From: Candidatus Heimdallarchaeota archaeon
Lineage (GTDB): Archaea > Asgardarchaeota > Heimdallarchaeia > Heimdallarchaeales > Heimdallarchaeaceae
DNA length: 64,000 nucleotides
Direction: 5' to 3'
Assembly: GCA_019057815.1 (NCBI GenBank)
Contig: JAHLWR010000009.1
Coordinates: 64,001-128,000, forward strand
The translations under genes and the position numbers were made by a program. Below the pieces are notes generated by a model. The model had not been told where the DNA came from and did no database searches. It saw nothing but the letters and a program-made list of their open reading frames with translations. Below are positions 3,521 through 6,909 of the stretch, in pieces (positions within the stretch are counted from its first letter, which is position 1; every line of letters begins with the position of its first letter).

Positions 3521-4147
3521 TTACTTCTTCTTTTCTAGCTCTTTATCTATTCTTGCTGCTTCGATGACGAACTCTTTGAATCCTTCAGGTTCTTGACCTT
3601 CTTCTATTGTATAAACAAAAGGCTTTCTTTTTCTTTCAACATCTAATTTTCGGGCAATTTTCCCTGCTTCATACTTTTCTCTAACTTGTGAATCTTTGCC
3701 AATCCAGACATAAATGTCATCCCAAGCATCTAGAACAAAAGTATCTCCAGATTTGAAAGATTTCATCTTAATAGGAACTTCTTTGGTTTCTATTTCACCG
3801 TCATCTTTCTGAATGATTCTTAGAAGTTTGTAATCAATGTCCGCTTTCTTCTCAAAGTGTACTAAGAAACCAGGAGTGTCGCCTTCTACAACTTCAAAAT
3901 CTAAAATGCTTTTGAATTCTTCAGGTTCATCGCCTTCTGAAATAGTTTTGATGAGTAATTCCTTATTTCCTTCTTCAACAACCTTTGCCCCCCATGCCCC
4001 AACAGCTTTATCATCAGCATAGGATTTTGACCCAATCCAAATCCAAACATTCAGAGGTGTAATAACTAGATAAACATCTCCATTGTTGAACTTATAAGGT
4101 TCTTGGAGTTTTTTTAGCTTTTTACGAATAACTTGATAAACATTCAT
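3521..4147 (-). CDS. Two-domain gelsolin-family actin regulator (Asgard 2DGel-like)
   Basis: Two gelsolin repeats: FNNGDVYLV..VWIWIGSKS..K..EGDEPEEF and FKSGDTFVLD..IYVWIGKDS..EK..EEGQEPEGF. Confidence 0.9.
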   Translation of the reverse strand: MNVYQVIRKKLKKLQEPYKFNNGDVYLVITPLNVWIWIGSKSYADDKAVGAWGAKVVEEGNKELLIKTISEGDEPEEFKSILDFEVVEGDTPGFLVHFEKKADIDYKLLRIIQKDDGEIETKEVPIKMKSFKSGDTFVLDAWDDIYVWIGKDSQVREKYEAGKIARKLDVERKRKPFVYTIEEGQEPEGFKEFVIEAARIDKELEKKK

Positions 4148-4199
4148 ATTTTATTATATATTTTTACTATCTTAAAAAAATTGTGAATGTACTTATGAG

Positions 4200-4420
4200 T
4201 TATTTTCCCCACTTTTCCCAGATTGAAGGAAAGTGGAAGACAATTTTGAGGACTCTTCCCAACCCAGGAACGTTTAAGGTCGCATAGCATCAAGCAGTAG
4301 CTTAGGGAGCTTCAAGCTCTGGGATTACACCTCCAACACACAGTGTTAACAGAGGTGAGGGGGTTCATCTCCTCACCGGGACTCATTACTGGAGACTTAT
4401 GTTATTGAGAACCTTAGGTA
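4200..4420 (-). ncRNA. Putative omegaRNA (reRNA) of the TnpB
   Basis: ~200 nt non-coding stretch 3' of tnpB with several hairpins (ggtgagg 4354-4360/cctcacc 4371-4377; aacac/gtgtt 4335-4347; gagct/agctc 4307-4319; ggaaga/tcttcc 4235-4259); canonical position for TnpB RNA. Confidence 0.6.
4202..4224 (+). repeat. Inverted repeat, copy downstream of tnpB
   Basis: attttccccacttttcccagatt vs reverse complement of 5941-5963 attttccccacttttcccacatt (22/23; 19 bp perfect). Confidence 0.9.
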
Positions 4421-5893
4421 CTCACTCCAGCTCCGGGGGTAAGCAGATGACTCTGCTTTGTCTGTAGCCATTGGCTCAAGACAGGGAAGACACGAAAAGA
4501 ACTGAGTGGAAAGAACTTTCCACTAACATGGTCTTTAATGGAGTTATATTTTGGTTGCAGAACGTATTTTATCAGTCTTTTAGCTATATTTTTCGCTCCA
4601 TTTAAGTCTGCATTAAGGTTATACCCACAAGTGTTGCAGATGAATGTAGGTTGGTTGGGACGGATAGTGTGATAGGATTCACAACGAGAACAGTAAGAAG
4701 AGGTCCACGATTCACTGATTGTTAGTATCCTATGCTCCTCCCATCCCTGTAAAGAGAGCTTGAATTTGAGTAATTCTGCCACTCTCCTGTAATTCCATTT
4801 GTGGATACTTTTACGGGAACGAGGGTGGAAGTTACCTCTGAAGTGGCTCTTACGGATATGAAAGGGGAAACCTACAACCACGTAGAGATCATATCTCTTA
4901 CCAACAGAGAGTATATATTTTACTAACTTATTGACATAGGTGTGGTCAGTTAGTTTATATTCAGTTCTTTCTCTCTTTCTGAGTTGTTTTAGTTGGTGGA
5001 GAAGATTTTTTTCTCTTGTTTACAGTCAAGCTAGTTTTAGCTAAAATTTTCTGCAGTTCAGTTATTTTTCTTTCTTTTTCCTTTTGCAATTTTTTTCGTG
5101 TCTTATCAGACCAGAATCTGATCTCATGACGGTTGATAACTCCCTTCGGAGTTAAGAGTGCACTTACTGCACGTTTGTTGATTCCTAAATCTATCCCCAG
5201 CACAGCTGGAGGACGAGGAGAAGCATACTTTTCTGGAATGTGAAGCAAGATGAAATGTACCCACCATTCCTTCTTCATTGGGTAGTAGAGCACTTCGAGT
5301 GCCTGTAATTTCCCTTGTTGTAGGTTATATTCATGATAAGGGGAACAAGCGAGAGGTAACCACAATTTCTCGTGTATGTGAGTTTTGTTCTTCTTTGTAT
5401 CAAAGGAGTCTCTTATCCCTACCCACCATCGGGCAATGGAGTTGGAAGGAGAACAAGTAAGAATAAACCTTTTACTATGGGCTAGCTGTGTACGGGGGAT
5501 TTTTTTTAGTGGAGGATTCTTAGCAGGAGCTGAATTGTTTGCTTGTTGACTGTGGTAGATAGCTACAGCATTCTCTCTACATTCCTGTAACTCATTCTGG
5601 GAGCAGCGAGGAAAGCTCTTTTTCAAATCATGTCTAACTGTAAGTCGATTGTGTAGTTTATTCTTCTTATATGTGGTAAGAGTATGATGGTCTAGTTTTG
5701 CTTTACTCACCTTCTTCTTTCCCTTCTTTTTGTTTACTAGTTGCTCTTCATTGTGATAGATCACTCTTAGGTACTGCTTAATTATTCTTGTATCTCTTCC
5801 CGTAATTTGCTCTAGTCTCTTTCTTTTCCGTGTTGTGATTACTTCTGCTTTAATTCTCACTTTTACAGTCGTTCTCACCCCACTTCTCGTCAT
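4414..5893 (-). pseudogene. tnpB: RNA-guided nuclease TnpB with rearranged (Fanzor-like) RuvC; single +1 frameshift
   Basis: RuvC-I VLGIDLG; RuvC-II region YVVVGFP followed by ISESWTS; Zn finger CSRC..CNTC; RuvC-III NADLNGAKNI. Removing one A from the A7 run (5006-5012) fuses ORFs 4961..5893 and 4414..4881 into 492 aa. Confidence 0.9.
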
Positions 5894-5940
5894 TCTTGAA
5901 TCATTATTTCTATTAGATTTTCCTATAAAAAGCTAACTAG

Positions 5941-5963
5941 AATGTGGGAAAAGTGGGGAAAAT
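5941..5963 (-). repeat. Inverted repeat, copy upstream of tnpB
   Basis: aatgtgggaaaagtggggaaaat, ~48 bp upstream of the tnpB ATG. Confidence 0.9.
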
Positions 5964-6042
5964 CAACCATGCATATTAGTGTTATAAAAATATACAAGCA
6001 AAACAATAAATTTTATAAAATACTTCGTTACAAATCATTTTA

Positions 6043-6909
6043 ATGCGTAAGCCAAAGAAAGAATACTATCTAGAATGGGAAGCTGAGAAGATTTTCATTA
6101 ACTTAAAAAACGGAGCTAAGTTAAGAGTTCTCTATTACCCTGCTATTACGAAATCAGAAAATACTCTCAATATCGTTTATAATTCAGGTTTTAATTCATA
6201 TGTTTTTATCTGGCTCGAATCTGTTGAGGAGCTAAGAAAATATCATAATATTTACTTCATCGAAACAAGAGAAAAAGAATTCTGCGAAATGCCAGATAAC
6301 AATCAAGATTACAGCGTACCTATACTTTCTGAAGATTTTAAATATGCACTTGATGAATTAGGACTAGATATTAGTAAGTGCGTTTTTACGGGGTCATCTA
6401 TCGGTTCTAATGGAATATTACACTCCATGGATAAATATCATTTGAAGCCTTTTTTGGCGGTTTTAGCTACACCAATGGCTCTAATGGAAAGAACTAATCT
6501 TATTGATACGACGCTTTGGATGCCTTATTATGTTGCTCAACTGCTTAAACCGTTTTTATACTTATTAATAACTATAATTTTCAGGAATGACAAATCCCAA
6601 GTAAAAACTATGAAACATGGTGTCAGCAGAATGCTCAAGAAAAAAAGTATGGCATGGCTTAGATTAAATCCTCTAAGTAAACCTTACGTAATGTCTGAAG
6701 AACATACAAAAAATCTTCATTCTCCAATTGTTATTGTAAACCCAGAAGCAGATAAAACTCACGATAGCGGTCTAATGACAAAAATAGAATCTTTTCTTCC
6801 CAAAGCGAAATTTGTAACAGTACCTGTTAATTCTGATACTCATAATAAGCGCTTTGCAAAGATTATCTTGGATGAGATTGAAAATCAAAGAAATAAGAAA
6901 GAGAATTAA
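6043..6909 (+). CDS. Alpha/beta hydrolase
   Basis: Nucleophile elbow GSSIG; late Asp and His candidates (ADKTH, DTH). Confidence 0.7.
   Translation: MRKPKKEYYLEWEAEKIFINLKNGAKLRVLYYPAITKSENTLNIVYNSGFNSYVFIWLESVEELRKYHNIYFIETREKEFCEMPDNNQDYSVPILSEDFKYALDELGLDISKCVFTGSSIGSNGILHSMDKYHLKPFLAVLATPMALMERTNLIDTTLWMPYYVAQLLKPFLYLLITIIFRNDKSQVKTMKHGVSRMLKKKSMAWLRLNPLSKPYVMSEEHTKNLHSPIVIVNPEADKTHDSGLMTKIESFLPKAKFVTVPVNSDTHNKRFAKIILDEIENQRNKKEN

What the first reader, a model, noticed from the sequence alone, without database searches (positions are those of the whole stretch)
4414..5210. TnpB has the Fanzor-type rearranged RuvC active site
Seen: the canonical RuvC-II glutamate position reads VVVGFP (Gly), and a downstream ExxTS motif (ISESWTS) precedes the zinc finger. 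RuvC-I Asp (GIDLG) and RuvC-III Asp (NADLN) are intact. Known: loss of the canonical Glu with a compensating downstream Glu marks Fanzors and a subset of prokaryotic TnpBs. Inference: once the frame is repaired this is a potentially active nuclease. It is relevant to whether eukaryotic Fanzors have Asgard relatives or whether the rearrangement arose convergently.
Basis: partly seen in the sequence, partly recalled or inferred. Interest (0 to 1): 0.75.

Follow-up and report, generated by a model that had tools for sequence, protein, structure and literature searches.

The report
Asgard TnpB with relocated catalytic glutamate
This is a frameshifted copy of a transposon-borne RNA-guided nuclease gene (TnpB) from a Heimdall-type Asgard archaeon whose active site uses a relocated glutamate, an arrangement already known from many prokaryotic TnpBs and from eukaryotic Fanzors, so it is a new member of a known kind rather than a special link to eukaryotes.

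Summary
On the minus strand (5893..4414) lies a 492-codon TnpB gene broken by one extra A in a run of seven (window 5006-5012). RuvC-I Asp (GIDLG), RuvC-III Asp (NADLN) and the C4 zinc finger are intact. Gly occupies the canonical RuvC-II Glu column, and a Glu sits six residues before the first CxxC. Gly and Glu are invariant in 65 of 65 aligned relatives. The genome holds three intact paralogs, and a same-genus genome holds an intact ortholog at the same site (dN/dS 0.13-0.19), so the family is under selection and the break is recent or an assembly error.

Published work treats this "alternative Glu" layout as a major class of prokaryotic TnpBs that has been shown active. Fanzors additionally carry D-P-G in RuvC-I, whereas this family has D-L-G (0 of 112 tree rows have DPG). 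Profile scores to Fanzor2 are lower than to Cas12f/TnpB structures.

The family appears Asgard-restricted. It sits in 1.78-kb elements with 26-bp terminal inverted repeats, a structured 3' RNA module and 355-bp mini derivatives, with no transposase found.

The parts
4194..5971 (-). Whole 1778-bp TnpB-only element, termini 5'-CATG...CATA-3' in gene sense
   Evidence: Similarity to four other full copies in the genome starts and stops here. The same-site ortholog in G003 has the same limits.
5946..5971 (-). Left-end terminal inverted repeat (26 nt)
   Evidence: Reverse-complement match to the right end in all 11 copies in the genome.
5924..5931 (-). TATA-like box (TTTTTATA in gene sense) about 30 nt before the start codon; also kept in the mini elements
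   Evidence: Read from the sequence. Conserved in the left-end part of the 6 mini elements. Promoter function is inferred.
4961..5893 (-). N-terminal reading frame of tnpB (310 aa), containing RuvC-I GIDLG (D235 = 5189-5191)
   Evidence: 82-89% identical to intact paralogs.
5006..5012 (-). Frameshift site: run of seven A (gene sense) with one base more than in all intact relatives
   Evidence: It is the only indel in the coding region relative to the three intact paralogs. The G003 ortholog reads five A then G here and has an open 492-aa frame.
4414..5005 (-). C-terminal reading frame of tnpB. Contains Gly at the canonical RuvC-II position (4870-4872), the alternative Glu (4711-4713), the C4 zinc finger (4627-4692), RuvC-III Asp (4606-4608) and the stop codon at 4414-4416.
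   Evidence: (PF07282, 1.2e-12).
4194..4485 (-). 3' RNA module (putative omega-RNA scaffold). It overlaps the last ~70 nt of the ORF and ends in the right-end inverted repeat (4194-4219).
   Evidence: This is exactly the part kept in the six 355-bp mini elements. The consensus fold has 67 pairs, 10 of them with compensatory changes. No Rfam match. The guide is inferred to lie beyond 4194.

Best explanation
The stretch is the nuclease half of a tnpB gene in a 1.78-kb non-autonomous mobile element of a Heimdallarchaeota genome. The encoded protein belongs to an Asgard-restricted family (about 480-610 aa) of RuvC-II-rearranged TnpBs. Asp235 (GIDLG) and Asp429 (NADLN) are kept and Gly341 replaces the canonical glutamate. 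Glu394, six residues before the zinc finger, is inferred to complete the D-E-D metal-binding triad, as Glu467 does in mimivirus Fanzor2 and Glu323 in Thermoplasma TvTnpB.

By inference from characterised TnpBs, the protein binds the structured RNA made from the element's last ~290 nt. It uses the sequence that follows the right end as a guide and cuts matching DNA next to a short motif, which keeps the element at its site. The six mini elements carry only the promoter-bearing left end and this RNA module, and would rely on the protein in trans.

The window copy is disabled by one extra A. Three paralogs and the same-site ortholog in a sister genome are intact and under purifying selection. The rearranged site was inherited from a wider clade of prokaryotic TnpBs with the same layout and is not a special tie to Fanzors.
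For: Shown:
- Motif positions and their invariance in 65 of 65 relatives.
- The Gly column equals the canonical Glu of solved Cas12f-type chains and of 19 canonical TnpB rows.
- The Glu-to-Asp spacing is 35 residues, against 34 in ApmFz2 (triad D324/E467/D501, passage of PMC11832414). The profile-to-9b0l alignment end-points put D429 on residue 501 and E394 within one residue of 467.
- Three intact paralogs and an intact same-site ortholog. dN/dS is 0.13-0.19 in 10 of 10 paralog pairs and 0.19 for the ortholog pair.
- The Asgard family (50 rows, support 100) is nested in clades of 75 (96) and 78 (88) rows in which every row with residues at both columns has the same layout (2 rows are gapped there). 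In the whole tree the split from canonical rows needs one change.
- The 3' region is structured with 10 compensatory pairs and is retained in the mini elements.

From the literature (passages only): E467A abolishes ApmFz2 cleavage, and TvTnpB with E323 cuts DNA in a TAM-dependent way (PMC10530073). The largest rearranged clade has Glu replaced by Gly (PMC10691335).
Against:
- No residue-level alignment to Fanzor2 was displayed; only end-points and spacing were available.
- No RNA or cleavage data exist for this family.
- NCBIfam's TnpB model scores the protein at 63.8 bits, below its cut-off of 100, so the family is divergent.
- The element has terminal inverted repeats and no known partner transposase. 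This differs from the IS200/IS605 setting in which TnpB homing was worked out, so the guide position and the transposon-adjacent motif are inferred.
- The purine at -1 seen in 11 of 11 own copies fails in a relative.
- The deepest Ealt/Ecan split in the tree has support of only 58.
Confidence: 0.75

Rival explanations
1. The Asgard family is the closest prokaryotic kin, or source, of eukaryotic Fanzors. The shared relocated glutamate and the inverted-repeat, transposase-less element architecture would then reflect common descent through the archaeal ancestor of eukaryotes, rather than cyanobacterial or viral transfer.
For: - Same alternative Glu position as Fanzors.
- Elements are bounded by inverted repeats, like many Fanzor elements (Yoon et al. 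passages).
- The sister group that includes an Odinarchaeia protein scores Fanzor2 at 66.9 bits against 80.6 for the best canonical chain, and touches a Fanzor1 chain at E 0.004.
- No Fanzor-inclusive tree could be made here.
Against: - RuvC-I is DLG; 0 of 112 rows have the DPG that Yoon et al. find near-exclusive to Fanzors and pro-Fanzors.
- The family profile scores Fanzor2 at 47.2 bits against 81.6 for Cas12f, and finds no Fanzor1 at E up to 10.
- No serine recombinase lies beside any of the 80 loci.
- The alternative Glu occurs in several large prokaryotic clades (PMC10691335).
- No eukaryotic cluster appears among the Atlas look-alikes of a homologue.
Confidence: 0.07
2. The family is not a cutting enzyme but an RNA-guided DNA binder or regulator (TldR-like). 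Its guide would be the right-end inverted repeat itself, which matches the element's own left end near the promoter, giving autoregulation.
For: - The last 26 nt of the RNA module are complementary to the left end in all 11 copies.
- Copies are old (dS 0.29-0.43) and stay in place across species, as expected of resident genes.
- In Thorarchaeota, 23 of 80 loci keep the gene beside one giant gene.
Against: - All three catalytic positions and the zinc finger are invariant in 65 of 65 relatives, unlike inactivated TnpB derivatives as described in PMC10691335 (passages).
- The match between the ends is what any terminal inverted repeat gives.
- Conservation runs to the very last base of the element and stops there in every copy, as for a scaffold followed by a flank-derived guide.
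Confidence: 0.07
3. The frameshift is not biological. The extra A in the seven-base homopolymer is an assembly or sequencing error, and the window gene is in fact intact.
For: - It is a single-base length difference in a homopolymer and the only indel in the coding region.
- dN/dS of the window copy (0.15-0.19) is no higher than that of intact copies.
- The ortholog is intact.
Against: - The run also differs from the ortholog by a base change next to it and from the paralogs at further positions, so the site has really mutated.
- Another copy (contig 26) is clearly broken by two insertions and stop codons, so decay of copies does occur.
- Reads were not available.
Confidence: 0.3

Closest known systems
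RuvC-II-rearranged prokaryotic TnpBs ('TnpB2' of Jiang et al. 2023; 'Ealt' TnpBs of Yoon et al. 2023; RIIr clades of Altae-Tran et al. 2023, whose largest has Glu replaced by Gly), including the tested Thermoplasma volcanium TvTnpB
   Same: Gly at the canonical Glu position, the alternative Glu six residues before the C4 zinc finger, D-hydrophobic-G in RuvC-I, NADxN in RuvC-III, a 3' non-coding RNA region ending at the right end, and an archaeal host.
   Different: The proteins are longer (about 490-610 aa against 350-460 aa in the nearest outgroups). They were found only in Asgard genomes in the searches made. The elements have 26-bp terminal inverted repeats and no Y1 or serine transposase nearby. 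Which named RIIr branch holds the family could not be checked because supplements are closed.
Fanzor2 (Acanthamoeba polyphaga mimivirus ApmFz2, PDB 9b0l) and cyanobacterial 'pro-Fanzors'
   Same: Relocated catalytic Glu at the same distance from the zinc finger and from the RuvC-III Asp (35 against 34 residues). Profile match at E 1.2e-11 over the RuvC half.
   Different: RuvC-I is DLG, not DPG. There is no IS607 serine recombinase. The host is archaeal. Fanzor2 scores below Cas12f-type chains (47.2 against 81.6 bits).
DDE-transposase-associated TnpBs with symmetrical ends (DDE-1 to DDE-6 branches, Altae-Tran et al. 2023)
   Same: tnpB lies within inverted terminal repeats, with its 3' end within 250 bp of the element end. 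That paper also describes solo TnpB copies with such ends.
   Different: No DDE (or any other) transposase with matching ends was found in this genome or, for the sister subfamily, in two complete Heimdallarchaeum genomes. Kinship to those branches was not tested.
IS200/IS605 and IS607 TnpB elements (ISDra2, IS608, ISXfa1)
   Same: TnpB with a 3' guide-RNA scaffold, and short non-autonomous derivatives made of the fused ends (compare the PATEs of haloarchaea, PMC3119063 passages).
   Different: Those families lack terminal inverted repeats (PMC6188088 abstract; PMC3119063). ISDra2 TnpB has the canonical Glu and scores only 23 bits with the family profile.

Membership tests
RuvC-II-rearranged (alternative-Glu) TnpB | Canonical RuvC-II Glu replaced by a non-acidic residue (Gly or Pro) | tested here: met
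   Gly341 aligns to the Glu of IQMEDL in 8j3r/8j1j/8j12. The column is G in 65 of 65 family members and E in the 19 canonical rows.
RuvC-II-rearranged (alternative-Glu) TnpB | Conserved Glu six residues before the first CxxC of the zinc finger | tested here: met
   E394-x6-C401. The read-through and paralogs fit the published regular expression. Invariant in 65 of 65.
RuvC-II-rearranged (alternative-Glu) TnpB | RuvC-I Asp, RuvC-III Asp and C4 zinc finger retained | tested here: met
   D235, D429 and C401/C404/C419/C422 are invariant and present in the window copy.
RuvC-II-rearranged (alternative-Glu) TnpB | Alternative Glu reaches the two Asp residues in three dimensions | not testable with these tools
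Only the spacing and alignment end-points relative to ApmFz2 D324/E467/D501 are available.
RuvC-II-rearranged (alternative-Glu) TnpB | RNA-guided, TAM-dependent DNA cleavage | not testable with these tools
   Needs a bench assay. Indirect support comes from purifying selection and a structured 3' RNA module.
Fanzor / pro-Fanzor lineage | D-P-G motif in RuvC-I (Yoon et al. 2023) | tested here: not met
   GIDLG. 0 of 112 aligned rows have P at that position. The read-through fails the DPG expression.
Fanzor / pro-Fanzor lineage | Alternative Glu before the zinc finger | tested here: met
Fanzor / pro-Fanzor lineage | Eukaryotic or giant-virus host (Fanzor), or cyanobacterial IS607 element with serine recombinase (pro-Fanzor) | tested here: not met
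   The 80 best loci are all archaeal, 66 of them titled as Asgard. Serine recombinase queries found nothing within 6 kb in 0 of 80 loci. Two scans of viral contigs gave no DPG sequence.
Fanzor / pro-Fanzor lineage | Groups with Fanzors in a phylogeny | not tested
   No tool yielded Fanzor sequences. The only proxy is profile bit scores to PDB chains: Fanzor2 47.2 against Cas12f 81.6.
IS200/IS605 or IS607 element | Y1 or serine TnpA in the element or family; asymmetric ends without terminal inverted repeats | tested here: not met
   No TnpA lies in any of the 11 own copies (lengths 1766-1778 and 354-357 bp) or in the 80 family loci. A 26-bp inverted repeat is present.
DDE-transposase-mobilised TnpB element | Inverted terminal repeats shared with a transposase-bearing master element | tested here: inconclusive
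   Inverted repeats are present. In this 95%-complete genome, all repeat-bounded pairs found hold only tnpB or are minis. The same holds for the sister subfamily in two complete genomes. A master element sharing only a few terminal bases would have been missed.

The most novel reading that the evidence does not exclude
Asgard archaea (Heimdall-, Thor-, Loki- and a sister group with Odin-archaea) carry their own deep clade of alternative-Glu TnpBs. These sit in inverted-repeat-bounded elements that have no transposase even in complete genomes, and they spawn RNA-only mini elements. This is the same combination of traits (relocated Glu, double-strand-type ends, solo nuclease) that marks eukaryotic Fanzor elements. 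The clade could therefore be the archaeal kin of Fanzors. Alternatively it could reveal a mode of mobility in which the nuclease and its RNA, rather than a classical transposase, maintain and spread the element.
Probability: 0.08. Interest if true: 0.8.

Novelty: new member of a known kind. Interest (0 to 1): 0.3.

Why it matters
The relocated catalytic glutamate has been linked to loss of collateral DNA cleavage and to the origin of eukaryotic Fanzors. An Asgard-wide family with this site is therefore a natural place to ask whether Fanzors came by descent or by transfer. The evidence here points to an ordinary answer. The trait is old and widespread among prokaryotic TnpBs, and this family lacks the second Fanzor hallmark (DPG).

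Two things may still be useful. The first is a set of intact, selected, roughly 490-aa Asgard nucleases with a defined 292-nt RNA module that could be tested as editors. The second is an unexplained inverted-repeat, transposase-less element architecture with RNA-only derivatives.

Tried and rejected
- Fanzor-inclusive phylogeny: no tool returned Fanzor sequences. Two scans of viral contigs, with the family alignment and with an outgroup alignment, gave canonical TnpBs and three alternative-Glu TnpBs, none with DPG. In one search my filter read only 12 of the 80 loci.
- Protein Atlas: it did not hold the paralog. A homologue's look-alikes were Thorarchaeota, phage, Thermoplasmatota and bacterial TnpB clusters, none eukaryotic.
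- Residue-level alignment to Fanzor2: 9b0l ranked 13th, 12th, 16th and 8th in four profile searches. Only the top five alignments are printed, so only end-points were used.
- Programmed frameshift: rejected. The A-run is absent from all four paralogs and from the ortholog, and a -1 slip leads into stop codons.
- aCas1-, Y1- or serine-recombinase association: rejected for the loci examined (0 of 80). The genome has such genes elsewhere but none beside a copy.
- Target-site duplication and empty site: no paralogous empty site in the genome. The intergenic DNA of other genera is too diverged. CATG is palindromic, so repeat and duplication cannot be told apart. The TAM is left undetermined.
- Rfam: no match in 4100-6100.
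- Giant Thorarchaeota neighbour: no Pfam, NCBIfam or PDB match.
- Literature: the search for 'Asgard' + 'TnpB' + 'Fanzor' gave one paper. The search for 'Heimdallarchaeota'/'TnpB'/'terminal inverted repeats' gave none that holds the word Heimdallarchaeota. Supplementary tables of PMC10691335, which may already place this family in a named branch, were closed.
Full report
WHAT IS THERE

Six-frame translation of window 4380-5930 and the ORF list show one TnpB-like gene on the minus strand, in two frames. Frame A runs from the ATG at 5893 to a stop at 4961 (310 aa). Frame B is open from about 5028 to the stop at 4414-4416. Pfam recognises the C-terminal piece as the Cas12f1-like TNB domain (PF07282, E 1.2e-12).

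An alignment with the four other full copies in the same genome shows a single indel in the coding region of the window copy. It is one extra A in a run of seven (window 5006-5012), where the paralogs read AG-AGACAG or AA-AAACAG. Read through with X at that codon, the product is 492 aa.

THE ACTIVE SITE

In the read-through the key residues are as follows:
- RuvC-I Asp is D235 in GIDLG (window 5189-5191).
- VVVGFP places G341 at 4870-4872.
- ISESWTS places E394 at 4711-4713.
- The zinc finger is C401/C404/C419/C422.
- RuvC-III Asp is D429 in NADLN (4606-4608).

In an alignment of 65 relatives that are 34-88% identical to an intact paralog, D235, G237, G341, E394, T397, S398, all four Cys and D429 are invariant.

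Two results show that G341 is the canonical glutamate column. First, a profile of the 65 sequences aligns it to the E of IQMEDL in solved Cas12f-type chains. Second, in a 112-row alignment the states are complementary. 91 rows have G (one has S) at that column and E six residues before the zinc finger. 19 rows have E at the canonical column and P or A at the later one. 2 rows are gapped.

WHAT IS KNOWN ABOUT THIS LAYOUT (passages read with the find mode only)

- Jiang et al. (PMC10530073) describe Fanzors and a group of TnpBs ('TnpB2') that lose the canonical Glu to Pro or Gly and carry a conserved Glu about 45 residues downstream. E467A kills ApmFanzor cleavage. The Thermoplasma TvTnpB (E323) cuts DNA next to an NTGAC motif and lacks collateral activity.
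- Altae-Tran et al. (PMC10691335) count two major clades and eight large branches with an altered RuvC-II. In the largest, Glu is replaced by Gly. Several of these branches are nearly exclusive to archaea.
- Yoon et al. (PMC10711439) define the alternative Glu as lying six residues before the first CxxC. They find that Fanzors and their proposed cyanobacterial IS607 ancestors also have D-P-G in RuvC-I, a combination they call exceedingly rare.
- Schargel et al. (PMC11832414) give the ApmFz2 triad as D324/E467/D501.

The window protein fits Yoon's expression for 'D, not P, G ... alternative Glu' and fails the DPG one. Its Glu-to-Asp spacing is 35 residues, against 34 in ApmFz2. The end-points of the profile alignments to chain 9b0l_P put D429 on residue 501 and E394 within one residue of 467. 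Those end-points are profile 201-443 on chain 288-510 and sub-profile 30-113 on chain 431-510. No residue-by-residue alignment to 9b0l could be displayed.

IS THE GENE ALIVE?

The genome (3.74 Mb, 48 contigs, 95% complete) holds five full copies. Three have open frames of 501-505 codons (contigs 10, 39, 40). The window copy is frameshifted, and one on contig 26 has two insertions and stop codons. All keep the motifs.

Pairwise dN/dS among the five copies is 0.13-0.19 in 10 of 10 pairs, with dS 0.29-0.43.

A same-genus genome (G003) has the element at the same site with the same flanks, 94.7% identical over 2 kb. Its tnpB is an intact 492-aa frame, and the run there is five A followed by G. The ortholog pair has 52 synonymous and 39 non-synonymous differences, giving dN/dS 0.19.

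The family is thus maintained by selection. The break in the window copy is recent, or it is a homopolymer error in the assembly; reads were not available to decide.

WHO HAS IT

- A word-indexed search of 5.8 billion proteins gave 155 hits among 7689 candidates. Of the 120 listed, 23 carry an organism name. All 23 are Asgard (Heimdall-, Thor-, Lokiarchaeota, Promethearchaeia). One more hit is named only 'subsurface metagenome'.
- In one genome per species (185,579 species), 281 stretches encode a relative. The best 80 are 32 Heimdallarchaeota (including two complete Heimdallarchaeum genomes), 33 Thorarchaeota, 1 'Promethearchaeati' and 14 'uncultured archaeon'.
- The gene next to the element is a two-repeat gelsolin, which fits an Asgard host.
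- An exhaustive profile search of 1.84 billion representatives found 13,906 proteins at E up to 0.001 but only 107 at E up to 1e-30.

RELATION TO OTHER TnpBs AND TO FANZORS

I built a quick maximum-likelihood tree (LG+G4, SH-aLRT only). The rows were 93 of 151 representatives (the 58 shorter than 340 aa were dropped), 10 named Asgard proteins and 9 of 32 viral hits.

The Asgard family forms a 50-row clade (support 100). It is nested in clades of 75 rows (96) and 78 rows (88). In these, every row that has residues at the two columns shows the relocated-Glu layout; two short rows are gapped there. The outgroups are 350-580 aa long. Two of ten neighbours looked up carry organism names, one Heimdallarchaeota and one Odinarchaeia.

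The layout needs a single change on the tree, but the deepest split has support of only 58. The trait therefore predates the family.

For Fanzors only a proxy was possible, namely profile bit scores to solved chains:

| Profile | Fanzor2 (9b0l) | Best Cas12f-type chain | ISDra2 TnpB | Fanzor1 |
|---|---|---|---|---|
| Asgard family (A1) | 47.2 bits (E 1.2e-11) | 81.6 bits | 23 bits | none at E up to 10 |
| Sister group (A4) | 66.9 bits | 80.6 bits | 41.1 bits | one chain at E 0.004 |
| Basal alternative-Glu group (A3) | 59.5 bits | 131 bits | 56.2 bits | none at E up to 0.01 |

None of these shows a special affinity of this family for Fanzors. Bit scores are not a phylogeny, however, and the sister group's relatively high score keeps the question open.

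THE ELEMENT AROUND THE GENE

- Similarity among copies begins and ends sharply at window 5971 and 4194.
- The ends are 26-bp terminal inverted repeats that begin with CATG. The window copy and its ortholog end in CATA.
- The genome also holds six elements of 354-357 bp. They are made of the first ~66 nt (with a TTTTTATA box) fused to the last ~290 nt.
- That 3' module (window 4194-4485) has a consensus fold of 67 pairs, 10 of them with compensatory changes, and no Rfam match.
- No obvious target duplication is seen.
- No Y1, serine-recombinase or Cas1 gene lies within 6 kb of any of the 80 family loci. All repeat-bounded pairs in this genome enclose only tnpB or a mini element.
- The Heimdallarchaeum subfamily has its own CATG-initiated repeats. 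Two complete genomes hold 21 and 20 such sites (reversed-pattern controls 0 and 1), and every facing pair is 1.8-1.9 kb apart.
- IS200/IS605 and IS607 elements lack terminal inverted repeats. Altae-Tran et al. report inverted repeats for DDE-associated TnpBs and solo copies with such ends. That is the nearest published architecture, but no transposase was found here.
- Earlier notes of this scan had already flagged the inverted repeats and the idea that the right-end repeat is a self-targeting guide. I confirm the repeats and regard the guide idea as unproven.

HOW IT MOST LIKELY WORKS

Shown: the motif layout, its conservation, selection on the protein, and a structured, conserved 3' RNA region that is also propagated alone.

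Inferred from characterised TnpBs and Fanzor2:
- D235, E394 and D429 bind the catalytic metal.
- The protein binds the 3' RNA.
- The guide is the flank beyond 4194. In the window copy this flank is the promoter region of the gelsolin gene.
- Cleavage of element-free target sites favours retention of the element.
- The mini elements borrow the protein in trans.

Not known: the motif next to the target, the RNA ends, and what moves the element.

VERDICT

The 'Fanzor-type' label is half right, because the relocated Glu is present but DPG is not. The arrangement is a known, common and tested variant of TnpB.

This is a new, apparently Asgard-restricted member family of a known kind, represented in the window by a freshly broken copy. 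Interest is modest (0.3). The open, more novel reading is kinship with Fanzors or an unusual mode of mobility, and it needs the tree, the structure and the bench tests listed under the decisive next steps.

Noticed in passing
L014:1280-1635, L017:1455-1803, L018:1446-1794 (own genome contigs 24, 36, 38; also contigs 1, 9, 37): There are six 354-357-bp mini elements. Each is made of the left end (inverted repeat plus TATA-like box, ~66 nt) fused directly to the 290-nt 3' RNA module and the right-end repeat. They would express the guide-RNA scaffold without the protein.
   Followed up: partly
L079:43-5748 (minus strand); also 22 other loci such as L068, L073, L088: In 23 of the 80 best family loci (Thorarchaeota or 'uncultured archaeon' records), a 1,500-1,900-aa ORF lies upstream and divergent from the tnpB homologue, at a median of 263 bp. 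Some of these ORFs are cut by contig ends. The example scanned has no Pfam, NCBIfam or PDB match. In 8 of the 80 loci an FlpD-like gene follows tnpB (3 of them among the 23), which hints at a fixed chromosomal locus rather than a mobile copy.
   Followed up: partly
L222:2401-4397 (genome G003, same genus): An orthologous insertion of the same element lies at the same site, 94.7% identical, with an intact 492-aa tnpB. The element is therefore older than the split of the two genomes, and its protein stayed under purifying selection (dN/dS 0.19).
   Followed up: yes
window 3521-4147 (minus strand): This is a two-repeat gelsolin gene (PF00626, E 2.7e-20), a eukaryote-like cytoskeleton protein typical of Asgard archaea. 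Its start codon is 47 bp from the element's right end, so the presumed guide of this copy would match the gelsolin promoter region.
   Followed up: partly
Genomes of L028 (CP084167) and L034 (CP084166), whole chromosomes: A sister subfamily in two complete Heimdallarchaeum genomes has its own CATG-initiated 23-nt inverted repeats (21 and 20 sites). Every facing pair is 1.8-1.9 kb apart. A variant repeat (CATGAGATAC...) occurs at eight further sites without an evident partner.
   Followed up: partly
own genome contigs 11 (~32115), 19 (~25549), 27 (~90270): Three lone sequences resemble the element's inverted repeat (2-3 mismatches in 18 nt). None has a partner repeat or a transposase-like ORF within 4 kb.
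   Followed up: partly
own genome contigs 1, 12, 33, 43: Further, only distantly related tnpB genes (419-443-codon frames, about 30% identical in the C-terminal part) are present. The genome also has two Y1 transposase genes, six serine-recombinase matches and three to four Cas1 matches. None lies beside a copy of the family studied.
   Followed up: no
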